IMG/VR virus record: IMGVR_UViG_3300023174_000135
DNA from: a virus
Taxonomy: Duplodnaviria; Heunggongvirae; Uroviricota; Caudoviricetes
DNA: 17,028 nucleotides
Direction: 5' to 3' (one strand)
Position 1 is the stretch's first letter. Every line of letters starts with the position of its first letter. A program made the translations under genes and the position numbers. Of the stretch, positions 363 through 16,447 are shown piece after piece. The notes beneath the pieces were generated by a model. The model ran no database searches. It had not been told where the DNA came from and saw only the letters and a list, made by a program, of their open reading frames with translations.

Positions 363-379
363 ACTTAAATATATAATAT

Positions 380-583
380 ATGGGACATCAAATAATTTCT
401 TCGGACAATCCTGAAACTTTTATTAAAGAGGTATATTCTAAATTAGAAAAAGGATTTAAAATTTCTAGCAATATAGAAACTACTAAAAGAGAAAATAAAA
501 CTATAACTAGTGTTATTATGTATAAAAGTAGTGATACTAAACATAAAACAACTGAAGAAATACATGCTTCCTGGAATTTATAA
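380..583 (+). CDS. hypothetical protein (67 aa)
   Basis: ATG-started ORF fills the gap between neighbours and is preceded by AAATATATAATAT. No family recognised. Confidence 0.6.
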   Translation: MGHQIISSDNPETFIKEVYSKLEKGFKISSNIETTKRENKTITSVIMYKSSDTKHKTTEEIHASWNL

Positions 584-2575: not shown

Positions 2576-2587
2576 TATATATTAAAA
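2576..2587 (-). promoter_or_regulatory. TTTTAATATATA motif upstream of the HNH gene
   Basis: Reverse-strand TTTTAATATATA, 4 nt before ATG 2571. Confidence 0.5.
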
Positions 2588-3218: not shown

Positions 3219-3248
3219 TTTGTTTTTTGAATTTTTTTTGTAATTTTG
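3219..3248 (+). promoter_or_regulatory. Bacteroidota-type housekeeping-sigma promoter
   Basis: TTTG(3219-3222)-N18-TAATTTTG(3241-3248) fits the -33 TTTG / -7 TAnnTTTG consensus, 15 nt before ATG 3264. Confidence 0.65.
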
Positions 3249-3263
3249 TGTAAAATTAATTCT

Positions 3264-5820: not shown

Positions 5821-5829
5821 TAATATATA
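5821..5829 (+). promoter_or_regulatory. TAATATATA motif
   Basis: Exact motif 5 nt before ATG 5835. Confidence 0.5.
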
Positions 5830-5834
5830 CTTTT

Positions 5835-6407
5835 ATGAAGTATTTAAAGTTTTTCGAAAATTACGATTTTAATGATTTATTAGCTGTTAATTTATCTAAC
5901 AATAAAATTAAAGATTTAATAGACACTAGATTTTTAAATGAAGAATTTAAATCGGTATATGGTGCAACCAATTATCCAGAAATGGATGTAAATGAAACTA
6001 TAATTGAAAGAAAAAAAGATAATAAAGTTCCATATTTACAAATTGGAATTGGTTTAGAATCTCTTTTTGAGTTTGAAAAATCTCCAAAAGGTTTAGAAGA
6101 ATTAAAAAAACATTTACTTGGTGGTAAAATTTTAAAACCAAAAAAAAATGGAGATGATAAAAATAAAAATAGAATTTTTCCATCTTTAACAATTGATATA
6201 CTTTTAACAATACATAATGAACAATTATTTTGTATGATTGATGGTGATTTCACACTTTTTGTAGGTGATTTTCCTTTGATAAACCATAGTGTCGAAAAAA
6301 AGAAATATGTTAAATTTAACACCGATGTTGAAATGCTTTTAATAGATGTTTTAAATAATTTAAACATTTATACCATATACGAAATTCAAGAATTAAACAA
6401 AGATTAA
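5835..6407 (+). CDS. hypothetical protein with MKYLKFFENY N-terminal tag (190 aa)
   Basis: Full ORF between apt and rpe. The N-terminus resembles other tagged proteins in the window, and there is an internal FLNE. Confidence 0.75.
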   Translation: MKYLKFFENYDFNDLLAVNLSNNKIKDLIDTRFLNEEFKSVYGATNYPEMDVNETIIERKKDNKVPYLQIGIGLESLFEFEKSPKGLEELKKHLLGGKILKPKKNGDDKNKNRIFPSLTIDILLTIHNEQLFCMIDGDFTLFVGDFPLINHSVEKKKYVKFNTDVEMLLIDVLNNLNIYTIYEIQELNKD

Positions 6408-6408
6408 T

Positions 6409-7041
6409 ATGATTATCGCCCCATCTTTATTATCCGCTAATTTTCTTAATTTAGCAGATGATATAAAAATGATTAACGATTCACAAGCTGAATGGGTCCA
6501 CTTAGATGTAATTGATGGACAATTTGCACCAAATATAACATTTGGCATTCCTGTAATAGAAGCAGTTAGAAAAGCAACTGATAAATTTTTAGATGCACAT
6601 TTAATGATTAATAATCCAGAAAATATGATAGATGCTTTCATAAAAGCTGGAGTTGATTCAATTACGGTTCATTATGAAGCTTGTACACATTTACATCGTG
6701 TTATTCAACAAATAAAATCATATGGCATTAAAGCAGCTGTGGCTTTAAATCCTCATACATCAGTGCAATCATTAGAGAATATTATTGATGATGTTGATAT
6801 GGTATTACTTATGAGTGTGAATCCAGGATTTTCAGGTCAAAAGTTTATTGATTTTACCTATGAGAAATTATTAAAATTAAGAAAAATATCACATCATACT
6901 TTAATTCAAATTGATGGTGGTGTATCATTAGATAATATAGAAAAATTAAAGTTATATGGCGCTAATTGCGTTGTAGCTGGAAATGCAGTATTTAAATCAC
7001 AAAATCCTTTAGAAACTATTAATAAAATGGCTTCATTATGA
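6409..7041 (+). CDS. rpe: ribulose-phosphate 3-epimerase
   Basis: IAPSLLSANF, HLDVIDG, PNITFG, DAHLMI, HYEACTHLHR, LMSVNPGF.GQKF, QIDGG and VAGNAVF, with metal ligands His/Asp/His/Asp present. HYEACTHLHR resembles Bacteroidota Rpe as I recall it. Confidence 0.95.
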   Translation: MIIAPSLLSANFLNLADDIKMINDSQAEWVHLDVIDGQFAPNITFGIPVIEAVRKATDKFLDAHLMINNPENMIDAFIKAGVDSITVHYEACTHLHRVIQQIKSYGIKAAVALNPHTSVQSLENIIDDVDMVLLMSVNPGFSGQKFIDFTYEKLLKLRKISHHTLIQIDGGVSLDNIEKLKLYGANCVVAGNAVFKSQNPLETINKMASL

Positions 7042-7445
7042 GTTATAATCTTTTTTTAGACGACAATTTTACACCTGAACAAATTGCTAATTTACCAAAA
7101 ACTCCTGTTGCAAATAAATCAAAATATAGGAATTTTAATTGGTTAATAACCAAAACATATGACGAATTTGTTAAAATAATTACCGAAAATGGACTACCAG
7201 AATATGTTTCATTTGATCATGATTTATCACCAGAACATTATGAAATGTTATTAAATGATGAAAATTGGAATAAATCAGATGATGAAATTGAAATTGATTA
7301 TTCTTTATTTCAAGAAAAAACTGGCTGGCATGCAGCTAAATGGTTAATTAAATATTGCAATAAAGAAAAACAAGAATTACCAATATGCTTGGTTCATTCT
7401 CAAAATTCAGTCGGACATAAAAATATAATTAATCTTCTTTTTTAG
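7038..7445 (+). CDS. cyclic-phosphate processing receiver-like domain protein (135 aa)
   Basis: LFLDD...TYDEF..I...GLP.YVSFDHDL...KTGW.AAKWL...VHSQNSVG..NI matches the stand-alone receiver family with DHDL. ATGA overlap with the rpe stop. Confidence 0.75.
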   Translation: MSYNLFLDDNFTPEQIANLPKTPVANKSKYRNFNWLITKTYDEFVKIITENGLPEYVSFDHDLSPEHYEMLLNDENWNKSDDEIEIDYSLFQEKTGWHAAKWLIKYCNKEKQELPICLVHSQNSVGHKNIINLLF

Positions 7446-7617
7446 TTTCTGGTAATCTAACTTCATTACCAACAAAACTAATTCCATGCATTTCTTTTGC
7501 ATTAAAAACTGGAGCAGCTTCTTTTTTAGTTGGCTGCGGCATTAAATCATCAGTTTTAATGTTTAATTCTTCGGAATTAAGAGATTTATATTGATCATAT
7601 GTTTTTAATCTTTGCAT
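7429..7617 (-). CDS. hypothetical protein with MQRLKTYDQY N-terminal tag (62 aa)
   Basis: ATG start with TTAATATATA 23 nt upstream and a tag-like N-terminus. 17-nt convergent overlap with the receiver gene. Confidence 0.6.
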   Translation of the reverse strand: MQRLKTYDQYKSLNSEELNIKTDDLMPQPTKKEAAPVFNAKEMHGISFVGNEVRLPETKKED

Positions 7618-7640
7618 AATAAAAATAATTTTTAATAAAC

Positions 7641-7650
7641 TATATATTAA
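7641..7650 (-). promoter_or_regulatory. TTAATATATA motif
   Basis: Reverse-strand exact motif in the divergent gap, oriented towards ORF 7617. Confidence 0.45.
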
Positions 7651-7651
7651 A

Positions 7652-8059
7652 ATGGAAAAGGACGAACTTTTAATGAATCAAATTCTGTTTTACAGAAAAA
7701 AATATTCAGAAAAATTGGAAGAATTAAATAAAGATTTAAATAAAAATCATATTACTTCTTATGATTTTAAATGTGCTAAAAATGGTTTACTTGGTAGAAT
7801 TAGTACACTTAACTCATTAATAGATTTAAATGACAAAACAAAAATAATAGATTTAATTTTTGATAAATTTAATGTATTTAACAATAGTTTAAAAACATTA
7901 AAAATTAATTTCTTGGATAAAAATGATAAAAATTTGGATATATTCCATTTATTACATGGATCGTGTATAGTATTACTTCTTTTAATGACGGTTTCCGACA
8001 ATCCTTTATCTTGTTGTCCTGAAAACAAAAAATTCTTTGATATAAAAAAGGTTGCTTAA
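7652..8059 (+). CDS. hypothetical protein (135 aa)
   Basis: ATG ORF whose TAA lies in the central part of the 8040-8075 hairpin. Confidence 0.65.
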   Translation: MEKDELLMNQILFYRKKYSEKLEELNKDLNKNHITSYDFKCAKNGLLGRISTLNSLIDLNDKTKIIDLIFDKFNVFNNSLKTLKINFLDKNDKNLDIFHLLHGSCIVLLLLMTVSDNPLSCCPENKKFFDIKKVA

Positions 8060-8075
8060 GCAACCTTTTTTATAT
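8040..8075. terminator. bidirectional Rho-independent terminator (perfect 36-bp palindrome)
   Basis: ATATAAAAAAGGTTGCTT|AAGCAACCTTTTTTATAT between convergent genes, with a T6 tract on both strands. Both stop codons fall inside it. Confidence 0.85.
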
Positions 8076-8324
8076 AAATAAAATTGTAAAATTTTCATAT
8101 CGGAAATTCAATGTTTCGTTTACATATTTCCTAAAAGCTTCTGGATTCATTTTAAAATTTGATTCATCAAATTCGTTTGATTCGCAAATAGCGATATTAC
8201 CTTGTTGTAATGCAATATCAAATGATATACCATCTATAAATTTTGATAATTCTTCCGATAATAAACTAAAAATGCGAGCGTTTTTATCACCTTTAATTGA
8301 AGTTTCTTTAATTAATAGTTTCAT
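8070..8324 (-). CDS. hypothetical protein (84 aa)
   Basis: ATG ORF ending in the palindromic terminator, with AATATATATA upstream (overlapping the previous stop). Confidence 0.65.
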   Translation of the reverse strand: MKLLIKETSIKGDKNARIFSLLSEELSKFIDGISFDIALQQGNIAICESNEFDESNFKMNPEAFRKYVNETLNFRYENFTILFI

Positions 8325-8339
8325 ATAATAATTTTTTAT

Positions 8340-8531
8340 TTATATATATTTTTTCAAATAATCATATATACAATGAGTTCTATCATCATTGTTTACTATT
8401 GTAATAGTATTTTCGACAAAAATATTACCATCTTTGATTTCTAATTTATCGGACATGATTAAATTCTTAAATGATTCCTTATCATCTTCGGATAATTGTA
8501 AATAATTTTCTACCATTTTAAATATATTCAT
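8340..8531 (-). CDS. hypothetical protein (63 aa)
   Basis: ATG ORF co-oriented with neighbours, with upstream GATATATA and a lone TAATTTTG (8572-8579, minus). Confidence 0.6.
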   Translation of the reverse strand: MNIFKMVENYLQLSEDDKESFKNLIMSDKLEIKDGNIFVENTITIVNNDDRTHCIYDYLKKYI

Positions 8532-8593
8532 ATAATAATTTTTCTTTTATATATCTTTTATATTAACATCCCAAAATTATAATAATCTATTAT

Positions 8594-9304
8594 CTATCTA
8601 TCTAATGTTTCGTTCAATCGTAAATTAGTAATTTCTAATTCAATATATTCAATAAACCTATTCAAATACCTATTTAATATATTTAAATCTAAATTAATTT
8701 CACGATTTAAAAATGGTGCTAAATCAGGATAATTTTTAATTATTCCATTTTTGGTATATGAATCAGAATCAAAACCATCAACTAAAGAAAATACTTGCCC
8801 ATATTGAAAAGCATTTACCTTGTAGATGTCCTCAATCTTTTCTTTTTTACCAACAAAATCGGTCATAATTGTATAATCAATTTTCTTTAAAACAGCTAAT
8901 CTTTTATATAAATCTCCTTTTAATGCTGGTTTAATTTCTTGTCGTAAATAGGTTCTTGAATAAAAAGTAATAATAAATCTAGCAACTCTTAAAATCTTCT
9001 CATTTAAATCTCTTTCAACAGGAGTTAGAATTGGATTAGGAAATTTTTGCTCATGTAGATGATATGTATAATAAAGACAATTGTTTAACTCATCAATAGT
9101 TCCTTTGTGACAATCTATTATTTGGTTATTATTTATAGTAATAAGATTAGAATTAATTTCTTTATCAGGATATATTAATTGTAATTCAATATTAAAGTTT
9201 TTACATAAAGCATGTGCCTTATCTATATCATTTGGTATAGAATCATATTCAACTAATATATCATAATCTTGGCTATTTTCCGAGCCAAATAAATAATAAC
9301 GCAT
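8594..9304 (-). CDS. putative Pol-beta superfamily nucleotidyltransferase-like protein (~236 aa)
   Basis: N-terminal YLFGSENSQDYDILV fits hG[GS]...Dh[DE]h, with an unusually short GS-to-DxD spacer, followed by a largely helical C-terminal region. Start set at ATG 9304 (MRYY) because the TTG-started extension runs through a promoter. Confidence 0.6.
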   Translation of the reverse strand: MRYYLFGSENSQDYDILVEYDSIPNDIDKAHALCKNFNIELQLIYPDKEINSNLITINNNQIIDCHKGTIDELNNCLYYTYHLHEQKFPNPILTPVERDLNEKILRVARFIITFYSRTYLRQEIKPALKGDLYKRLAVLKKIDYTIMTDFVGKKEKIEDIYKVNAFQYGQVFSLVDGFDSDSYTKNGIIKNYPDLAPFLNREINLDLNILNRYLNRFIEYIELEITNLRLNETLDR

Positions 9305-9307
9305 AAG

Positions 9308-9338
9308 CAAAATTACAAAAAAATTTGTTAAAATCAAA
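9308..9338 (-). promoter_or_regulatory. Bacteroidota-type promoter for the nucleotidyltransferase gene
   Basis: Minus strand TTTG(9338-9335)-N19-TAATTTTG(9315-9308), then CTT-ATG. Confidence 0.65.
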
Positions 9339-9355
9339 AAAAATAATTACTTTTG
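9324..9355 (+). promoter_or_regulatory. Bacteroidota-type promoter for the RNA ligase gene
   Basis: TTTG(9324-9327)-N20-TACTTTTG(9348-9355), 21 nt before ATG 9377. Confidence 0.65.
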
Positions 9356-9376
9356 CTGATATAAAATTTTAATAAA

Positions 9377-10015
9377 ATGTCTAAATACCCCAAAACTTAC
9401 CATTTACCTTGGTCTAAAGGACTTCTTAACGAAGATAGAATGTGTCAAGATATATCTAGATTTATTGGTGTTCCGATTGTTATTACCGAAAAAATGGACG
9501 GAGAAAACAATGCTATGACAAATAAAGGCGTATATGCTCGCTCACATGCTGATTTTACGAATTCGCCATGGTCTGCTAAGATAAGAGAATTACATTCAGT
9601 TATTAAATCTGGTATATCTGATGATTTATTTATATTTGGTGAAGGCATGTCCGCTTTGCATTCAATAAAATATGATAATTTAACATCTCATTTTTATATG
9701 TTTGGCGCAAGATTTAATGGTATTTGGTCATCTTGGGATGAAGTAGAAGATTATGCTTTTTTATTAGATTTACCAACTGTTCCTGTTTTATTTAAAGGTA
9801 TAGTTAATTCCGAAAAAGAATTACAAAGTTTAACCGAAAAATTAAGTGCAGAAACATCATTTTTTGGAGGCGCAAGAGAAGGTATTGTATGTAGAATTCA
9901 AAGCGAGTTTAAAGAAGAAGATTTTGAATTTTGTGTCGCTAAAATTGTGAGGGCTAATCATATAGGCACAGACGAACATTGGCAAAAAAATTGGAAATGG
10001 GCAAATATAAAATAG
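9377..10015 (+). CDS. ATP-dependent RNA ligase family protein (nucleotidyltransferase domain only, 212 aa)
   Basis: KYPKTYHLPWS N-terminus, motif I TEKMDGEN (Lys at 9491), ARSH, motif III FGE, IIIa FYMF, IV REGIV and V AKIVR, plus NH..TDEHW tail. Confidence 0.85.
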   Translation: MSKYPKTYHLPWSKGLLNEDRMCQDISRFIGVPIVITEKMDGENNAMTNKGVYARSHADFTNSPWSAKIRELHSVIKSGISDDLFIFGEGMSALHSIKYDNLTSHFYMFGARFNGIWSSWDEVEDYAFLLDLPTVPVLFKGIVNSEKELQSLTEKLSAETSFFGGAREGIVCRIQSEFKEEDFEFCVAKIVRANHIGTDEHWQKNWKWANIK

Positions 10016-10040
10016 TAATCCAATGATAAAGGGTTTATAA

Positions 10041-10051
10041 TTTTATATATA
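10041..10051 (+). promoter_or_regulatory. TTTTATATATA motif variant
   Basis: 4 nt before ATG 10056. The same variant precedes the other GIY-YIG gene. Confidence 0.4.
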
Positions 10052-10055
10052 GTAT

Positions 10056-10664
10056 ATGGAAAAAATATACTATACTGTTTATAAAACAATTAACTTAATT
10101 AATGGTAATTATTATATTGGAGTTCACAAGACTAAAAATCTTAATGATTCATATCTCGGTTCCGGTAAAATATTGAAACAAGCCATAAAAAAATATGGAT
10201 CATCTAATTTTATTAAAGAAATACTTTTTATTTTTGATAATCCAGAGGAAGCGTATAACAAAGAAAGGGAAATAGTAAATTCTGATTTTGTCAAAGAAAC
10301 AAATACATATAATGTAGCAATTGGTGGAATACCAACTACAGATTTCTACCCACATAGAATATATTTATCCGGTGATAAACATCCTATGTGGGGCAAAAAA
10401 CATTCAGAAGAATCAAATAAAAAAAGAGCCAAAAAACTTCTTGGTAAAAAAATGTCAGATGCAGCTAGAGCAAATATGTCAAAAAGTCAAAAGGGTCATA
10501 AATCTTGGAATAAAGGAAAATCTCTTTCAGATAAAGATAAACAAGCTAAATCAATAGCGGCACTAAAGTTAGTAAAATTAGAATGTCCATATTGTAAAAA
10601 ATTAACAGATCCAGGTAATAGTAAACAATGGCATTTTGAGAATTGTAAAATGAAAAATAATTAA
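10056..10664 (+). CDS. free-standing GIY-YIG (Seg-like) homing endonuclease with NUMOD3-like repeats (202 aa)
   Basis: YTVYKTINLINGNYYIGVH...YLGSG..LK.AIKKYG..NF.KEIL...E catalytic module. MWGKKHSEES, GKKMSD and WNKGKSLS NUMOD3-like repeats, and a C-terminal CPYC...HFENC. Confidence 0.88.
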   Translation: MEKIYYTVYKTINLINGNYYIGVHKTKNLNDSYLGSGKILKQAIKKYGSSNFIKEILFIFDNPEEAYNKEREIVNSDFVKETNTYNVAIGGIPTTDFYPHRIYLSGDKHPMWGKKHSEESNKKRAKKLLGKKMSDAARANMSKSQKGHKSWNKGKSLSDKDKQAKSIAALKLVKLECPYCKKLTDPGNSKQWHFENCKMKNN

Positions 10665-10684
10665 TACCCAAAAACATTTATAAA

Positions 10685-10903
10685 ATGGCACTTAAAAAAT
10701 TTGAACAATTTGAAACAGATAATAATAAATTAAAAGAAATCATTAATACATATGATGATTTTGATGAGCAAAATTATGAATTTGCTAAATGGATATTTAC
10801 ACAAGAAGAAGGTAGAGAAGCTGATATGGATACTGTTAAAGATATGAATTGTGTGGCAATGCTTGAAGTAGGTGTTAGATATGCTAGAAATTATAATAAA
10901 TAA
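10685..10903 (+). CDS. hypothetical acidic protein with MALKKFEQF N-terminal tag (72 aa)
   Basis: ATG ORF with a TAATG stop/start overlap with the GT25 gene. Confidence 0.7.
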   Translation: MALKKFEQFETDNNKLKEIINTYDDFDEQNYEFAKWIFTQEEGREADMDTVKDMNCVAMLEVGVRYARNYNK

Positions 10904-11592
10904 TGTTTGATAAAATATACTGCCTTTCTTTAAGAAAGGATAAAGAAAGACGAAAAAAAGTTAGTAATAGATTAAATCAAATTGGTTTAAATTATGAATT
11001 TTTTGATGCTTATGATGGTAGTTTATTTCATCATATTTGGCAAAAATTAGATAATCCTATTTTTACAAACCAAAACTATGTTGCCTGCACTCTTTCACAT
11101 TTGGCAATTTATAAAGATGCCATAGAAAATGGATTTAATCGTATTTTAATTTTAGAAGATGATGTTATACCTCATTATGGATTTAACAAATTGATGATAG
11201 GTAATATACCAGATAATTATGATTTACTTTATTTAGGGTTTATTCCTTTATCAGATGATTGTGTTTTTTGGACTTATAATATAATTAATGATAGATTTGT
11301 TAAAAACAATTTATTTTTGGCAAAAAATTTATGGGGACTTTATGCTTATTCTCCTTCAACAGAAATAATGAAAGAAGCTATTGAAAAATATTCAGATGGT
11401 TTTCCAATGGAATTAGATAGATGGTTTGTTGAAGATGTACAAAGAAGAGAAAGGAGTTATGGTATAACTCCTCAACCTTTTTGTCATGATATATCATATT
11501 CAAATAATACAGGTCATGTAGATGGTACATCTTTAACTAAATCAATAGATAGGAGATTTGCAACAGATGAAAATTATATTATTAATGTATAG
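10903..11592 (+). CDS. glycosyltransferase family 25 protein (229 aa)
   Basis: IYCLSL..DKERR, FFDAYDG, ACTLSH and ILILEDD are GT25 (Lex2B/LgtB-like) signatures. Confidence 0.85.
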   Translation: MFDKIYCLSLRKDKERRKKVSNRLNQIGLNYEFFDAYDGSLFHHIWQKLDNPIFTNQNYVACTLSHLAIYKDAIENGFNRILILEDDVIPHYGFNKLMIGNIPDNYDLLYLGFIPLSDDCVFWTYNIINDRFVKNNLFLAKNLWGLYAYSPSTEIMKEAIEKYSDGFPMELDRWFVEDVQRRERSYGITPQPFCHDISYSNNTGHVDGTSLTKSIDRRFATDENYIINV

Positions 11593-11609
11593 TAATAGTA
11601 TTTATTATA

Positions 11610-11996
11610 TCATGATGTTGCCGATCTTTCTGAAGATTCGTTTGGATAACGAATCATAGCTCCTACATATAATCTATTATTATTTTTTATAAACCCAAAA
11701 TTAGAATAAAAATCTTTTAATTTTAATATATCTGAACCAAATTTACTGCTTGGAGTTAAGTTAATAATTAAATTATAATTATCAGCAAAAGTAATCATAT
11801 CTTGCATGAATTTTTTTGCGTATCCTTGTCCTTTTAATTCATTAGGAACTTCTAACATTGATAGATAAATAGAATTACCAAAACGAGGATATAAATCAAT
11901 AGTTAAACCTAATTTTCGATAAGGTTTTATTAGATTTGATATCCTCGATTGTAAAAATCTATGTTCGTATTCTTCAAATAATTTAATATACTTCAT
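11610..11996 (-). CDS. GNAT-family acetyltransferase with MKYIKLFEEY N-terminal tag (128 aa)
   Basis: LSMLEVPNELKGQGYAKKFM is the acetyl-CoA-binding (R/Q)xxGxA motif A, and LKDFYSNFGF is motif B. Confidence 0.8.
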   Translation of the reverse strand: MKYIKLFEEYEHRFLQSRISNLIKPYRKLGLTIDLYPRFGNSIYLSMLEVPNELKGQGYAKKFMQDMITFADNYNLIINLTPSSKFGSDILKLKDFYSNFGFIKNNNRLYVGAMIRYPNESSERSATS

Positions 11997-12580
11997 TATT
12001 CTTCATCATCGGTGTCATCCGAGTCAATTTTCTTTGCTTTTGGTGGTTTTCTATTTTTTAATTTATCTTCTATCATACTGAAAGCTTTATCATAATCTTC
12101 TTTTGTAATTTCTTTATCTTTCAACTTTAATTTATCGAAAATACTCATAGCCCACATACCAATTTTAGTATAAATTGGTGCTTCAAAATCATCTTTTTCA
12201 TCTTGTGTTAAATATTGAGACCCATTAGCCATATGTTCTAATTTATCAGCAAATTTGTGTTCTTTACCTTCGTTAACAACACTTTCGTCAAATAATCCAA
12301 AACCTTCATCTTCTAACATTTCTTGTGCTGTTTCTTTTGCATGCTCAAAAGCTTCTTCATACATACCATCATTTAAATATTCTTCTATAGTATCTAAACC
12401 ATTAGCATAAATAGCGGTATCAGGCAAATCACTGGCTGATATAAATCCTAAATATTTATCGACTAATTTGATTGCTACTTTTCTTGCTCCAAGTTTTTCA
12501 ATTAATTCGCTAATTTTTGCATACTTTTCAGTATTGTTAGATTCAGTTATAAATGTTGTATAATTTTTAATTATTTTCAT
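11996..12580 (-). CDS. hypothetical acidic protein with MKIIKNYTTFITE N-terminal tag (194 aa)
   Basis: ATG ORF coupled to the GNAT gene by a 1-nt overlap, with internal SVVNE and an acidic tail DSDDTDDEE. Confidence 0.75.
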   Translation of the reverse strand: MKIIKNYTTFITESNNTEKYAKISELIEKLGARKVAIKLVDKYLGFISASDLPDTAIYANGLDTIEEYLNDGMYEEAFEHAKETAQEMLEDEGFGLFDESVVNEGKEHKFADKLEHMANGSQYLTQDEKDDFEAPIYTKIGMWAMSIFDKLKLKDKEITKEDYDKAFSMIEDKLKNRKPPKAKKIDSDDTDDEE

Positions 12581-12596
12581 ATTTTATATTTTTATT

Positions 12597-12607
12597 TATA
12601 TATTAAA
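12597..12607 (-). promoter_or_regulatory. TTTAATATATA motif
   Basis: Reverse-strand exact motif 16 nt before ATG 12580, just after the GIY-YIG stop. Confidence 0.5.
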
Positions 12608-12614
12608 TTTTTTT

Positions 12615-13712
12615 CTAAAATTCTTCACCTGAAAATCTATATGTGAATCCTTTAACTATTAAAGGTTTTCCTGTTTTTTGATTATACTTTTGATGACAGC
12701 ATCTTGATATATTTGCACCAGTTTCGCTTATTCCCGCTTCTATACAAGCTCTTTTTATTGAATCAAATTCTTCTATAAATATACCATCTAATGTATATTT
12801 AGAAACTTTTCTACTTGTTTTTTGTATATATTGATTATATGGCACATAATCAAATAAATCACCTTCATATCTAAAAGTAGTATCATTAACCGTATAATAA
12901 CTTTTATTTTTACAACAATTATTAATCAAATGTGGATGACATCCAGTTTTTTTAGATGCTTGTATAATGCCAATATATTTTCCCAATATATTTCCATATA
13001 AATCATAGTGAATATAATTTTTTTGTGGCTTTCTATTTTTAATTTTTTCTTCTTTAATTTTTGCCTGTTTATCAATAGTTTTTTGCTTCCTTTTCGTAGG
13101 CAATTTTTCTACTTGATTGGCATCTAAAATTTTTTGTATCTCTTCCATATTTGTAATTTTTTTTGCATAACCACATGTGAAAAATTGATCACTATATCTA
13201 AAATAGTATCCTTTAAATGTTGGAATTTCATCTTTACAACATCGAACTACAGATCTCCTGTTAAAAACAGGATGATTATCCAATTCTTTTGAAGATTCAA
13301 ATTTTTGTATAAAATTATTATTAAAATCAAATTGAAGTATAATTTTTCTAAATGGATGGTTATATTTCATTCTTTTTACCGATTCTTCTTCATGTTTTCT
13401 TCCAGTCCAATCATAACCATCTCCACCATCAGTATCATTAGTTAAATCAGGGATTAATTCTCTATATTTTTTAATATATTCTATTTCATAATTATTAACT
13501 TCTTCTTTTGTAGTTTCCAAAAGAGTTTGTATTTGTGGAGTTAAATGATTATCTAATAAACTCTTTATCCATTGATTTTTTGGAGTCCAAAACCCATGTT
13601 TTTTACAATCACCAATATGTTTTTTAAGTCTATTTTTAAGATTATTGGTTTTTCCAATATATCTAATTCTATTATCAGTTGGATCAATTAATGCATAAAT
13701 ATAATATGTCAT
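12615..13712 (-). CDS. free-standing GIY-YIG homing endonuclease with NUMOD3- and three NUMOD1-like modules (365 aa)
   Basis: YIYALIDP...RYIGKT...RLKKH...EIEYI catalytic domain and GRKHEEES. Repeats ILQFDFNNNFIQKFES, IHYDLYGNILGKYIG and VSKYTLDGIFIEEFDS, each followed by ..CC..and Y(Y/T)FRY-like ends. Confidence 0.88.
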   Translation of the reverse strand: MTYYIYALIDPTDNRIRYIGKTNNLKNRLKKHIGDCKKHGFWTPKNQWIKSLLDNHLTPQIQTLLETTKEEVNNYEIEYIKKYRELIPDLTNDTDGGDGYDWTGRKHEEESVKRMKYNHPFRKIILQFDFNNNFIQKFESSKELDNHPVFNRRSVVRCCKDEIPTFKGYYFRYSDQFFTCGYAKKITNMEEIQKILDANQVEKLPTKRKQKTIDKQAKIKEEKIKNRKPQKNYIHYDLYGNILGKYIGIIQASKKTGCHPHLINNCCKNKSYYTVNDTTFRYEGDLFDYVPYNQYIQKTSRKVSKYTLDGIFIEEFDSIKRACIEAGISETGANISRCCHQKYNQKTGKPLIVKGFTYRFSGEEF

Positions 13713-13729
13713 ATTTTAAGTTTTTATTT

Positions 13730-13740
13730 TATATATAAAA
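13730..13740 (-). promoter_or_regulatory. TTTTATATATA motif variant
   Basis: 17 nt before ATG 13712, and part of the palindrome TTTTATATATAAAA (13727-13740). Confidence 0.4.
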
Positions 13741-13780
13741 ACAATATATCTCCCTTGTGTATTTTTTGAAAATTTTTTAT

Positions 13781-13788
13781 TATCTTTG
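13781..13788 (+). promoter_or_regulatory. Bacteroidota-type -7 box upstream of gltX
   Basis: TATCTTTG 28 nt before ATG 13817. The -33 element is imperfectly spaced (TTG at 13755, 23 nt away). Confidence 0.5.
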
Positions 13789-13816
13789 TGCTAATTAAAA
13801 ATTTAAATTAAAGGAA

Positions 13817-15331
13817 ATGACTAATAAAATAAATAAAAAAGTGGTGACTCGTGTCGCTCCAAGCCCAACAAGTCCTTATGGCTTACACGTTGGCAACATT
13901 CGAACTATGTTATTTAATTATTTATTTGCTAAACAAAATGGTGGAACATTTTATTTGCGAATAGAAGATACAGATCAAGATCGTTTTTGCGAAGGTTCAG
14001 AAGAATTAATTAAAAAAACTCTTGATTGGTTAGGCATAGAAGCTGATTTTGCACCTTGGACTGATAATAAACCTTTTGGCGCAATGCGTCAATCTGAAAG
14101 AGATTATACACATTATGTTAAGTATCTTTTAGATAATGGTTATGCTTATTATGCTTTTGATACAAAAGAAGAATTAGATGCTTTAAGAGCTAATCAACAA
14201 AATTTTTCATATGGACATACAAATCGTATGACATTAAAAAATTCATTGGCTTTATCTTCCGAAGAAGTTAATAAACTTTTAGAAGCAAATACACCATATA
14301 CAATTAGGTTTAAAGTTGATGCTAATCAAGATATAACTTTTACTGATATAATTCGTGGTGAAGTTACATTCAACACAAATCAAATGGATGATAAAGTTTT
14401 AGTTAAAACTAATAAAATTCCAACTTATCATTTAGCTAACATTTGTGATGATCATGATATGGGAACTACACATACTATTCGTGGTGAAGAATGGCTTTCT
14501 TCTACTCCTTTACATGTTTTAATTTATAAAGCATTTGGTTGGGAAATGCCTGAATTTGCGCATTTACCATTAGTGTTAAATCCACCGCCATTAAAAGGCA
14601 AATTATCTAAAAGAAATGCTGTTAAATTAGGATTTCCAATTTTCCCATTTGGTGGTAATTCAGAAGAAGGTTATTTAAAAGGGTTTGTTGATGAAGGTTA
14701 TGACCCAGCAGCCGTAATAAACTTTCTTTTATTATTGGGTTGGACACCACATGGTATGAAAGATGGTGATGAAATTTTATCATTAGAAGATGGTATTAAG
14801 TTATTTGATTTACATTCAGTGCATAAAGCAGGTGCAAGATATGATATTGATAAATTAAAATTTTTCAATGGATATTATTTGCAACATAAAACTACAGATG
14901 AAGAATTGTTTAAATATGTAAATTTTGGTAATTCTAATTATTCTGATTCACAAAAATTAGAAATTTTAGATATGGCTAAAAAACGTTCACATTTTAAGCA
15001 TGAAATGCAACATGTGGTTGATTTATTTATTGATTCTGTTAAATTAGATGAAAAACAATTATCTACAATTACAGAATTACATAATGAAACATTTGTGCAG
15101 TTTTTGAAATTGGCTGAAACAATTGAATGGAATCATGATTCTATTAAGCAAACTATAAACGATGCTTGTAATTTAACAGGAATTAAAATGGGTAAATTTA
15201 TGCCTATTGTTAGAACAATTCTTGCAGGTGGTATTACAGGACCAGATATGGTTAGTTTTATGACAATCATCGGAAAAGAAGAAGTTAGAAAGCGTGTTAA
15301 TACGGTTTCAATGAAGTATAATTTGATTTAA
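13817..15331 (+). CDS. gltX: glutamate--tRNA ligase (class I)
   Basis: TRVAPSPT, HIGH-equivalent HVGN (13886-13897), LRIEDTDQ.R, RQSER, PTYHLANICDDH, HTIRGEEW, FAHLPL, KMSKS-equivalent KLSKR (14600-14614), LGW, and an anticodon-binding helical C-terminus. The KLGFPIFP segment after KLSKR resembles Bacteroidota GluRS. Confidence 0.95.
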   Translation: MTNKINKKVVTRVAPSPTSPYGLHVGNIRTMLFNYLFAKQNGGTFYLRIEDTDQDRFCEGSEELIKKTLDWLGIEADFAPWTDNKPFGAMRQSERDYTHYVKYLLDNGYAYYAFDTKEELDALRANQQNFSYGHTNRMTLKNSLALSSEEVNKLLEANTPYTIRFKVDANQDITFTDIIRGEVTFNTNQMDDKVLVKTNKIPTYHLANICDDHDMGTTHTIRGEEWLSSTPLHVLIYKAFGWEMPEFAHLPLVLNPPPLKGKLSKRNAVKLGFPIFPFGGNSEEGYLKGFVDEGYDPAAVINFLLLLGWTPHGMKDGDEILSLEDGIKLFDLHSVHKAGARYDIDKLKFFNGYYLQHKTTDEELFKYVNFGNSNYSDSQKLEILDMAKKRSHFKHEMQHVVDLFIDSVKLDEKQLSTITELHNETFVQFLKLAETIEWNHDSIKQTINDACNLTGIKMGKFMPIVRTILAGGITGPDMVSFMTIIGKEEVRKRVNTVSMKYNLI

Positions 15332-15332
15332 T

Positions 15333-15836
15333 ATGTTTCAAGAAGATAATAGTGGTTATATTTTTTTCCCGAATGGTAATCATAAAATAACATCAATTGA
15401 TACGGGTAAAACTCTTGTGTATTTAGTTGTATTTGATCCAATTAAGAAAAAGATAAAAGATTCTAAATTAGAAAATGTTAATTTATTTTCACCAGGAGTT
15501 TTTGTATCAGATGACGTAATGGCTCGTCCTCCTATTAAAATACAGGATGATTCATTAGATGGATTTATTGAATCACATAAAGAACAACAAGAATATGATG
15601 CTTTATATTTCCCTCATTTTGAATCTGAAGAAGATTTGAAGCGGCAAATGTCTATTAATTTAGTAAGTGCAATTTGTATTGGTTGGTCAAATTATTCATT
15701 TGAATATAGACATAGCATTCGTTATTGGAATGCTTCATTTCGTGATTTAACGCCAGAAGGACGCAATCTTTATTATAGTATCAAAAAGTTGCATAATAAT
15801 AAAGAAGTAAGGATTTTAACTTTTTCGACAAATTAG
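15333..15836 (+). CDS. hypothetical protein (167 aa)
   Basis: ATG 1 nt after the gltX stop, suggesting coupling. No family recognised. Confidence 0.75.
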   Translation: MFQEDNSGYIFFPNGNHKITSIDTGKTLVYLVVFDPIKKKIKDSKLENVNLFSPGVFVSDDVMARPPIKIQDDSLDGFIESHKEQQEYDALYFPHFESEEDLKRQMSINLVSAICIGWSNYSFEYRHSIRYWNASFRDLTPEGRNLYYSIKKLHNNKEVRILTFSTN

Positions 15837-15873
15837 AAAAAAAAGTTAAAAAAGTTGATTTTTTGGTATTTTA

Positions 15874-15885
15874 TTTTAATATATA
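15874..15885 (+). promoter_or_regulatory. TTTTAATATATA motif
   Basis: Exact motif 26 nt before ATG 15912. Confidence 0.5.
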
Positions 15886-15911
15886 ATTTAACAAACAAAA
15901 AAATATATTAT

Positions 15912-16307
15912 ATGAAATACATTTTAAATCATCCACTTACTGAACAATCTATCCATGCATTAGACAATCCAGCTGAAACTCATGGTGAAAGAGACGTGAC
16001 TCATACACACCAAGATGTTGAACATTATGCAGGAGCTGGCGAAACTCGCAAAACTCAAAAAGATGCTGAACATCTTCTTTCACAGGCAACTTTTATAGAT
16101 GCTAAATCTAAATCAATTGCAGGACAAAATGATGTTGCTGATGATCCAAATGGACATCGTTTATCTGATATTGCGGAAACTCCAGCTAATGCGCCAGCAA
16201 TTAATACTTTGCATAATGCACCATCTGATGATGCGGCACGTTTAGCAGAAGGTAATGAAGAAGTAAGATCTAAAATCATTAGATTTGCTGATTTCCAAAA
16301 TAAATAA
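15912..16307 (+). CDS. low-complexity, probably disordered protein (131 aa) with tag-like termini
   Basis: Start moved to ATG 15912 (MKYILNHPLTE) because the TTG extension overlaps the promoter motif. Rich in A/D/E/H/T, ends KIIRFADFQNK, and is followed by a terminator. Confidence 0.75.
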   Translation: MKYILNHPLTEQSIHALDNPAETHGERDVTHTHQDVEHYAGAGETRKTQKDAEHLLSQATFIDAKSKSIAGQNDVADDPNGHRLSDIAETPANAPAINTLHNAPSDDAARLAEGNEEVRSKIIRFADFQNK

Positions 16308-16387: not shown

Positions 16388-16419
16388 TTTGTTAAAGTCA
16401 TTTTTAAGTATTATATTTG
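16388..16419 (+). promoter_or_regulatory. Bacteroidota-type promoter
   Basis: TTTG(16388-16391)-N20-TATATTTG(16412-16419), 28 nt before ATG 16448. Confidence 0.65.
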
Positions 16420-16447
16420 TAAAATAGAATTAAAGTTAAAAAAAAAT

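What the first reader, a model, noticed from the sequence alone, without database searches (positions are those of the whole stretch)
5835..16307. Family of unrelated proteins sharing an N-terminal MKxIKx(F/Y)Ex(F/Y) tag, like a capsid-targeting sequence
Seen: MKYLKFFENY (5835+), MQRLKTYDQY (7617-), MALKKFEQF (10685+), MKYIKLFEEY (11996-), MKIIKNYTTFITE (12580-) and more loosely MKYILNHPLTE (15912+) start proteins with otherwise unrelated bodies. Four have the TAATATATA motif directly upstream and the other two follow genes that have it or its variant. Known: T4 internal proteins carry a ~10-residue capsid-targeting sequence (MKTYQEFIAE), removed by the gp21 protease after (I/L)xE. FITE and PLTE fit that rule, while internal FLNE and VVNE only resemble it. 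Inference: a modular packaging tag that loads diverse late-made cargo into the head for ejection at the next infection.
Basis: partly seen in the sequence, partly recalled or inferred. Interest (0 to 1): 0.75.

Follow-up and report, generated by a model that had tools for sequence, protein, structure and literature searches.

The report
T4-like head-loading tag on huge-phage proteins
Five otherwise unrelated late genes in this huge-phage fragment start with the same 10-13-residue peptide, a longer version of the tag phage T4 uses to load proteins into its head, so they are probably carried in the virus particle, though nothing here proves that.

Summary
15912+ is not a member. The core motif occurs four times in all six frames of the window, each time at residues 3-4 of a real ORF.

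The tag is not special to this genome. Huge-phage relatives (LR756504, LR745206) carry 18-19 strict copies each, against 0 for a reversed control. 301 Bacteroidota-phylum genomes show only control-level counts.

In LR756504, the tag goes with the (A/T)ATATATA box (30/43 tagged against 123/866 untagged genes). That box also precedes the portal and major capsid genes, so it is probably the late promoter.

These relatives have a T4-type portal, a fused gp21-gp22-like protease-scaffold, and a gp23-like capsid gene. The scaffold carries 11 repeats of aromatic-x-x-aromatic-[ILV]-x-E. This is the pattern of T4's MKTYQEFIAE and of the extended tag.

Best reading (about 0.55): a capsid-targeting leader that docks cargo on the prohead scaffold.

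Weak points: no virion data, the window's own head genes were not available, and only one window tag ends in a T4-type cleavage site.

This scan has reported the same kind of tag on other huge-phage DNA at least a dozen times.

The parts
5835..6407 (+). Tagged gene, 190 aa (MKYLKFFENY). The body is a confident alpha+beta fold with no clear structural relative.
   Evidence: Matrix score 19.3. All 7 orthologues keep MKYLKxFE. AF2 pLDDT 85.6, with residues 1-7 below 50. Best Foldseek TM is only 0.33-0.39, to CapZ/YbjN-like folds.
5821..5829 (+). TAATATATA box 5 nt before the ATG of 5835; putative late promoter
7429..7617 (-). Tagged gene, 62 aa (MQRLKTYDQY), a conservative variant of the tag
   Evidence: Matrix score 6.1, above all internal controls. 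Called as a gene on an independent contig.
7641..7649 (-). TAATATATA box 23 nt upstream of 7617-
10685..10903 (+). Tagged gene, 72 aa (MALKKFEQFE), with the tag one residue shorter. It has no box of its own and lies 20 nt after 10056-10664, which has TTATATATA at 10043-10051.
   Evidence: Matrix score 15.8 at offset -1.
11610..11996 (-). Tagged minimal GNAT-like protein, 128 aa (MKYIKLFEEY). Its start overlaps the stop of 12580-.
   Evidence: Matrix score 23.7. Pfam GNAT matches are below the curated cut-offs. HMMER finds 1,673 relatives. The same body also occurs with this tag plus a zinc ribbon, with another leader, and inside polyvalent proteins.
11996..12580 (-). Tagged two-domain helical protein, 194 aa (MKIIKNYTTFITE). 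It is the only window tag that ends in aromatic-x-x-aromatic-I-x-E.
   Evidence: The alignment shows tag+A+B against tag+B homologues. In the AF2 model the tag (residues 1-15) and the linker (95-104) have pLDDT below 50.
12269..12280 (-). Internal VVNE (residues 101-104) in the flexible linker. It aligns with the end of the tag in short homologues, so it is a possible second processing site.
12597..12605 (-). TAATATATA box 16 nt upstream of 12580-. It probably serves the 12580/11996 pair.
15912..16307 (+). It does have the box, at 15877-15885.
   Evidence: Matrix score -24.1, within background.
8340..8531 (-). Borderline extra candidate, 63 aa (MNIFKMVENY)
   Evidence: Score 0.2, equal to the best internal control.

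Best explanation
The shared N-terminus is a capsid-targeting leader of the T4 type, three residues longer than T4's. It is used by a large clade of uncultured T4-superfamily phages, among them this huge Bacteroidota-type phage.

Proposed mechanism:
1. Tagged genes are transcribed late from the (T)AATATATA box, together with the head genes.
2. The leader is a flexible, amphipathic N-terminal segment. Its two aromatic residues three apart (F7 and F/Y10) correspond to T4 residues 4 and 7, and they dock it onto the prohead core.
3. The docking partner is probably the repeat region of the fused gp21-gp22-like protease-scaffold, because the leader copies that region's own repeat unit (aromatic-x-x-aromatic-[ILV]-x-E).
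4. Where the leader ends in [ILV]-x-E (12580- here), the S77 protease removes it. Where it does not (the four others), the cargo may be loaded uncut or cut elsewhere.
5. The cargo then sits in the head and may enter the next cell with the DNA.

Shown here: the tag's reality, position, spread, phage specificity and modularity; its link to the box; and the T4-type head module with scaffold repeats in relatives. Inferred: docking, cleavage, packaging and ejection.
For: 1. Position and chance. All 4 six-frame occurrences of the core motif are at ORF starts. Five window N-termini beat every one of 2,687 internal-Met controls.

2. Protein-level selection and spread. LR756504 and LR745206 hold 18 and 19 strict copies with varied synonymous codons, against 0 for the reversed pattern. 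In LR756504, 58 of 909 N-termini exceed the 99.9th percentile of the controls.

3. Phage-specific. 301 genomes of a Bacteroidota-type phylum sample gave about 198 hits in about 1 Gb, of the same order as the reversed control and without the MK[YH] signature.

4. Unrelated bodies. 189 tagged proteins fall into 148 body clusters. AF2 leaves the tag disordered on two different folds.

5. Modularity.
- The GNAT body occurs with this tag, with this tag plus an inserted zinc ribbon, and with a different leader (M..I..KIL.EA). That second leader recurs on an unrelated neighbouring gene.
- The same GNAT body also occurs inside polyvalent proteins with ART-PolyVal, MuF_C and PBECR3 domains.
- Homologues of 12580- exist as tag+A+B and as tag+B.
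- Distant homologues of 12580- keep [IL]-x-E directly before domain A.

6. Likeness to T4. In T4's MKTYQEFIAE, residues 4 and 7 carry targeting and residues 8 and 10 carry processing (PMC9026906; sequence confirmed). The tag has the same aromatic-x-x-aromatic-[ILV]-x-E pattern.

7. Head machinery in relatives. They have a T4 portal, Gp23 and an S77 protease domain in a 690-770-aa fusion with a scaffold. 10 of 22 large tag-bearing contigs carry the S77 domain.

8. Scaffold mimicry. In LR756504 the heptad occurs 92 times. 23 are at N-termini (2.3 against 0.38 per 1,000 positions). 11 are in the protease-scaffold protein, as 14-residue repeats.

9. Late class. The box lies upstream of 30/43 tagged against 123/866 untagged genes (odds ratio 14, p = 2.6e-15). 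It also precedes the portal, protease-scaffold and capsid genes. The box class includes Portal_T4, Gp23, SLT and UvsW. The host-type TAnnTTTG class holds RNA/DNA ligases, GluRS, ClpP and a sigma factor.
Against: - There are no virion proteomic or N-terminal data for any phage carrying this tag.
- The window's own genome is not held, so its protease, scaffold and capsid genes were not seen. All head-module evidence comes from relatives that share only 47% identity in GluRS.
- Four of the five window tags, and all 18 strict tags of LR756504, lack [ILV]-x-E at positions 11-13. The T4 processing rule is therefore mostly unmet in this clade.
- About 6% of all genes would be head cargo, far more than in T4.
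- 71% of tagged proteins are acidic.
- The S77 matches in the closest relatives fall below Pfam's cut-off.
- In the window the box also drives homing-endonuclease and other untagged genes.
- Across mixed IMG/VR loci, enrichment of the box before tagged genes is only two-fold.
Confidence: 0.55

Rival explanations
1. The leader is a real, portable address tag, but for another destination or partner. Candidates are a phage chaperone or assembly hub, another virion compartment, or a recognition tag for the phage-encoded Clp-type protease. The head interior would not be the target.
For: - Most tags in this clade lack the T4 cleavage site.
- The tagged set is very large, 58 of 909 genes in LR756504.
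- The tagged set is mostly acidic.
- LR756504 encodes ClpP and AAA+ proteins.
Against: - The determinants match those mapped for T4 capsid targeting.
- The one protein with many internal copies of the heptad is the head protease-scaffold.
- The tag goes with the promoter class of the head genes.
- The GNAT cargo is also a module of polyvalent, MuF-linked proteins.
Confidence: 0.25
2. The conserved unit is a gene-start cassette, made of the promoter box plus the first ten codons. It would be kept because it gives efficient late expression or serves as microhomology for shuffling new genes into the genome. The peptide itself would have no sorting role.
For: - Box and tag co-occur, and the box often lies only 4-5 nt from the ATG.
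- Tagged genes cluster in arrays of paralogues (L029, L053).
- Bacteroidota largely lack Shine-Dalgarno initiation (background knowledge).
Against: - Synonymous codons vary freely while the residues are kept.
- The tag is kept without its own box in 11996- and 10685.
- 13 of 43 tagged genes in LR756504 have no box.
- Most box-driven genes are untagged.
- The residues conserved are the ones functional in T4.
Confidence: 0.12
3. The resemblance is a by-product of AT-rich codon usage at N-termini (K, I, Y, F, N, E).
For: The window has 21-30% GC. All tag residues except E use A/T-only codons.
Against: - Reversed-pattern controls give 0 in 636 kb.
- No internal-Met window in LR756504 scores as high as the five window tags.
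- All six-frame hits lie at ORF starts.
- Orthologues conserve the tag.
Confidence: 0.02

Closest known systems
Capsid targeting sequence (CTS) of phage T4 internal proteins IPI, IPII, IPIII (MKTYQEFIAE), removed by the gp21 prohead protease after L/I-x-E
   Same: - An extreme N-terminal leader of about 10-13 residues beginning MK.
- Two aromatic residues three apart, which are the mapped targeting positions in T4.
- In the wider family, [ILV]-x-E directly after them.
- Carried by otherwise unrelated proteins.
- The phage lineage has a T4-type portal, capsid protein and S77 protease.
- Tagged genes belong to the presumed late class.
   Different: - Three residues longer, with an (I/L)-K-x insert, so the aromatics sit at positions 7 and 10 instead of 4 and 7.
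- In this window's clade the cleavage tripeptide is usually missing.
- Present on about 5-6% of genes, not 3-5 proteins.
- The protease is fused to the scaffold.
- No experimental evidence of packaging.
T4 scaffold core (gp22, gp67, gp68), cut into peptides by gp21
   Same: The relatives' scaffold region has many repeated [ILV]-A-E sites. This fits a core that is cut into small pieces.
   Different: Here the scaffold is fused to the protease, and its repeat unit has the same heptad as the cargo leader. I know of no such relation described for T4.
Polyvalent proteins of phages and conjugative elements (MuF-linked multi-effector proteins)
   Same: The GNAT body of 11610-11996 also occurs inside such proteins, next to ART-PolyVal, MuF_C and PBECR3 domains. 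It is therefore a recurrent module of proteins thought to travel with the DNA.
   Different: Here the module stands alone behind a short leader and is not fused into a giant protein.
T4 late promoter TATAAATA (gp55-dependent)
   Same: A single A/T-rich box close to the gene start, found before the head genes and the tagged genes.
   Different: The sequence is (T)AATATATA. It often lies only 4-5 nt from the ATG. No gp55 homologue was sought here.

Membership tests
T4-type capsid targeting sequence | Leader at the extreme N-terminus, about 10-19 residues | tested here: met
   All six-frame motif hits lie at residues 3-4 of ORFs; matrix scores.
T4-type capsid targeting sequence | Targeting residues: two aromatic positions three apart (T4 residues 4 and 7; PMC9026906) | tested here: met
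   F/Y at positions 7 and 10 in all five window tags (6 and 9 in 10685). F7 in 146 of 158 and F/Y10 in 158 of 158 family members, although the search pattern forced F/Y at both positions. The register is shifted by three residues relative to T4.
T4-type capsid targeting sequence | Ends in the gp21 site L/I-x-E | tested here: inconclusive
   Present in 12580- (FITE) and in 53 of 158 family members. Absent in the other four window tags and in the 18 strict tags of LR756504.
T4-type capsid targeting sequence | Carried by proteins with unrelated mature parts | tested here: met
   148 body clusters among 189 tagged proteins; different predicted folds.
T4-type capsid targeting sequence | The genome encodes a gp21-type (S77) prohead protease and a scaffold core | tested here: inconclusive
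   Found in relatives LR756504, LR745206 and LR756501 (below Pfam's cut-off, but 26-47% tblastn identity to T4-like gp21+gp22) and in 10 of 22 large tag-bearing contigs. The window's own genome is not held.
T4-type capsid targeting sequence | Late expression together with the head genes | tested here: inconclusive
   Inferred only from the shared promoter box. No expression data.
T4-type capsid targeting sequence | Tagged proteins are present in virions, with the leader removed; the leader alone is enough to package a foreign protein | not testable with these tools
   No cultured phage with this tag was found. The complex prediction gave no verdict.
GNAT acetyltransferase (for 11610-11996) | Match to GNAT profiles over the acetyl-CoA-binding core | tested here: inconclusive
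   PF14542 scores 21.1 bits (cut-off 30) and PF13673 scores 20.7 bits (cut-off 23.6). A 97%-identical protein carries a precomputed PF13673 hit. 1,673 HMMER relatives.

The most novel reading that the evidence does not exclude
Huge T4-superfamily phages load some 40-60 different proteins (about 6% of their genes) into the head. Each would carry a leader that imitates one repeat unit of the phage's own protease-scaffold fusion, so that cargo co-assembles with the scaffold. If so, the leader is a sequence label for mining a large, unexplored set of injected host-takeover and anti-defence proteins directly from metagenomes.
Probability: 0.4. Interest if true: 0.8.

Novelty: new variant of a known kind. 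Interest (0 to 1): 0.6.

Why it matters
T4's capsid-targeting sequence marks the few proteins that the phage injects to disarm host defences. If this longer tag does the same job, it flags dozens of candidate injected proteins per genome in uncultured huge phages. That would turn a pool of genes of unknown function into a defined, testable class. It would also offer a packaging tag for phages of Bacteroidota.

The match between the leader and the scaffold repeat suggests a concrete docking mechanism that could also be tested in T4.

I found no paper that describes this tag or its expansion in huge phages. This scan, however, has met the same phenomenon repeatedly on other genomes.

Tried and rejected
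- Whole genome of the window: not held. The independent contig that carries the region cannot be searched whole.
- Exact window DNA in IMG/VR and megablast against phages: no match.
- The search for related loci with the 5835 family in IMG/VR: none.
- Homologue of the 12580 protein in the three huge-phage relatives: none.
- Pfam and PHROGs on the tagged proteins: only weak GNAT hits.
- Foldseek on the 5835 model against PDB and AFDB clusters: only weak CapZ/YbjN-like rows, TM 0.33-0.39, not used.
- Complex prediction on the first 60 residues of a tagged protein plus the protease-scaffold of the same IMG/VR contig: no verdict. This is not evidence either way.
- Literature string searches for the tag: nothing.
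- Cultured close relatives with virion proteomes: none nearer than ordinary T4-like phages. A cyanophage proteome paper was too shallow to be worth mapping.
- 15912+ as a member: rejected.
- FLNE in the 5835 protein as a cleavage site: rejected. It is helical in the model and its E is not conserved.
- A few hits of the DNA pattern are unrelated families whose own N-terminal motifs happen to fit (Dcm-type methylase, NUMOD4/HNH endonucleases).
Full report
WHAT THE WINDOW IS

The window has 21-30% GC. It encodes GluRS, Nampt, an adenine-type phosphoribosyltransferase, ribulose-phosphate epimerase, an RNA ligase, a GT25 glycosyltransferase, GIY-YIG endonucleases and many small ORFs without Pfam hits.

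The best matches to its GluRS are 634-735-kb 'uncultured phage' genomes: LR756504 and LR745206 at 47% identity, then LR756502 and LR756501. No whole genome is held for the window. A 100%-identical protein lies on a 291,723-bp contig. An independent 78-kb ENA contig carries the same gene order, with all the small ORFs called as genes.

THE OBSERVATION

The six N-termini are as described. The core motif [LIVM]K.[FY][EDQ].[FY] occurs four times in the whole six-frame translation. Each occurrence is at residues 3-4 of a real ORF: 5835+, 7617-, 10685+, 11996-.

I trained a position matrix on independent IMG/VR tags and scored all 28 window N-termini. Five scored above every one of 2,687 internal-Met control windows from a related genome: 11996- (23.7), 5835+ (19.3), 10685+ (15.8), 7617- (6.1) and 12580- (5.3). 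8531- ties the best control at 0.2. 15912+ scores -24.1, which is background. So five of the six listed genes are members.

The promoter statement is right. TAATATATA lies 5, 23, 16 and 26 nt upstream of 5835, 7617-, 12580- and 15912. 11996- overlaps the stop of 12580-. 10685 follows 10056, which has TTATATATA.

THE TAG IS WIDESPREAD, SELECTED AS A PEPTIDE, AND PHAGE-SPECIFIC

Nearly all are ORF starts, with a median ORF of 132 aa. Several contigs carry 3-6 tagged genes within 10 kb.
- The consensus is M-K-[HY]-[IL]-K-[LT]-F-E-x-F-[ILV]-x-E. 53 of 158 tags have [ILVM]-x-E at positions 11-13.
- LR756504 and LR745206 have 18 and 19 strict matches, against 0 for the reversed pattern. Synonymous codons vary freely. 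All 18 matches in LR756504 are real ORFs of 72-354 aa.
- In the full LR756504 sequence (909 ORFs), 58 N-termini exceed the 99.9th percentile of internal controls.
- In 301 genomes sampled from the phylum of a Bacteroidetes MAG, the pattern gave about 198 hits in about 1 Gb. That is the same order as the reversed control, and the hits lack the MK[YH] signature.

UNRELATED BODIES AND MODULARITY

With the first 15 residues removed, 189 tagged proteins form 148 clusters at BLASTP E <= 1e-5, of which 124 are singletons.

AF2 models of two window proteins leave the tag unstructured in front of different folds:
- The 5835 protein has pLDDT 85.6, with residues 1-7 below 50.
- The 12580 protein is two helical domains. 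Residues 1-15 and the linker 95-104 are below 50.

All seven orthologues of 5835 keep the tag.

The GNAT-like body of 11996- has 1,673 HMMER relatives. They occur in four settings:
- with this same tag;
- with this tag plus an inserted zinc ribbon (P0072; L031, L090, L094);
- with a different leader, M..I..KIL.EA (P0009, P0011, P0016 and others). On one contig that leader also heads an unrelated neighbouring gene;
- inside polyvalent proteins with ART-PolyVal, MuF_C, PBECR3 and GH108 domains.

The 12580 protein reads as tag + domain A + 'FDESVVNE' + domain B. Short homologues are tag (MKIIKNFGEFINE) + domain B alone. Distant homologues have other N-terminal regions but keep [IL]-x-E directly before domain A. 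This looks like a conserved processing junction, and it makes the internal VVNE a plausible second site.

LINK TO T4 HEAD ASSEMBLY

In T4, leaders of 10-19 residues send internal proteins to the prohead core. In MKTYQEFIAE, residues 4 and 7 carry targeting and residues 8 and 10 carry processing. An Asp at position 10 blocks cleavage but not targeting. gp21 cuts after L/I-x-E (PMC9026906; the sequence was confirmed). The present tag has the same aromatic-x-x-aromatic-[ILV]-x-E pattern, three residues further from the Met.

The relatives have the genes in T4 order: portal (Portal_T4, E = 1.5e-66), then a 690-770-aa protein with an S77 protease domain followed by a scaffold-like repeat region, then a Gp23 capsid protein. 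The fusion protein aligns with both gp21 and gp22 of cultured T4-like phages. 10 of 22 large tag-bearing IMG/VR contigs carry the S77 domain, always in such a long frame.

In LR756504 the heptad occurs 92 times:
- 23 are at N-termini, 2.3 per 1,000 positions against 0.38 per 1,000 internally.
- 11 are in the protease-scaffold protein, as 14-residue repeats such as YSEYIAE.
- No other protein has more than three copies.

The cargo leader therefore resembles one repeat unit of the scaffold.

THE BOX IS PROBABLY THE LATE PROMOTER

Genome-wide in LR756504, the most enriched upstream 8-mers fall into two classes: ATATATA(C/G)/AATATATA, and a Bacteroidota-type TAnnTTTG.

- The box lies within 60 nt upstream of 30/43 tagged against 123/866 untagged genes (odds ratio 14, p = 2.6e-15).
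- The host-type element lies before 3/43 tagged against 112/866 untagged genes.
- The box precedes the portal, protease-scaffold and capsid genes.
- The largest box-class genes include Portal_T4, Gp23, SLT and UvsW, and are otherwise mostly without Pfam hits. The host-type class holds RNA and DNA ligases, GluRS, ClpP, a poly(A)-polymerase-type enzyme and a sigma factor.
- The window shows the same split. TAnnTTTG lies before the Nampt, nucleotidyltransferase, RNA ligase, GluRS and 16448 genes. The box lies before the tagged units and also before several untagged genes.
- Across mixed IMG/VR loci the enrichment is only two-fold.

WEIGHING THE EVIDENCE

The tag's reality, modularity and phage specificity are firm. 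The capsid-targeting reading rests on four things: likeness to T4 in the functionally mapped residues, the scaffold repeats, the late-class promoter, and the company the GNAT module keeps.

Against that reading:
- There are no particle data.
- The head-module evidence comes from relatives, not from this genome.
- Most tags in this clade lack the cleavage tripeptide.
- The number of tagged genes is very large.

My odds are about 0.55 for capsid targeting, 0.25 for another sorting or partner role, 0.12 for a gene-start cassette, and about 0.02 for chance.

The phenomenon is a variant of a known mechanism. I found no published description of it. This scan has reported similar tags on at least a dozen other huge-phage windows. 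I treated those notes as leads only.

Noticed in passing
window 367-382, 602-610, 2576-2584(-), 5821-5829, 10043-10051: In five genes the (A/T)ATATATA box ends only 4-5 nt before the ATG (380, 615, 2571-, 5835, 10056). In others it lies 16-26 nt away. The same two distance classes appear in IMG/VR loci and in LR756504. The short class would give leaderless or nearly leaderless mRNAs.
   Followed up: partly
window 3230-3263, 9305-9376, 13780-13816, 16410-16447: Bacteroidota-type TAnnTTTG elements precede the Nampt, nucleotidyltransferase, RNA ligase, GluRS and 16448 genes. The window therefore mixes two promoter classes, probably early (host-type) and late (box).
   Followed up: partly
window 11996-12580 (-): This gene looks like a fusion of two formerly separate tagged genes. 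Short homologues (P0164, P0167) are tag + domain B alone, and the internal 'GFGLFDESVVNE' resembles their tag 'DFGSFVNE'.
   Followed up: partly
LR756504 185342-187636 (-), loci L124/L152: Prohead protease (S77) fused to a scaffold with eleven 14-residue repeats (..I.YSEY[IVL]AE.LDK..). The capsid protein's N-terminal region contains a similar WMSEYAE(Y/F).
   Followed up: partly
L220 685-1056 and 1600-2022: A second leader type, M..I..KIL.EA, with a perfect L-x-E-A site. On a small phage-like contig it heads both a GNAT homologue and an unrelated 140-aa protein.
   Followed up: partly
window 15912-16307: A box-driven gene for a 131-aa protein rich in H, A, D and E, with higher GC than its surroundings and no homologue-based annotation. 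It looks disordered from its sequence; no model was made. It is not a tag member.
   Followed up: no
window 2571-1333 (-): The listed TTG start at 2592 is probably wrong. The ATG at 2571 (MIKDENIEV) has the box 4 nt upstream.
   Followed up: partly
LR756504 tagged genes (loci L130, L136-L138, L140, L144): Many tagged proteins continue straight into long acidic runs, for example SEDWDDEEEEE. 71% of all tagged proteins collected are net acidic.
   Followed up: no
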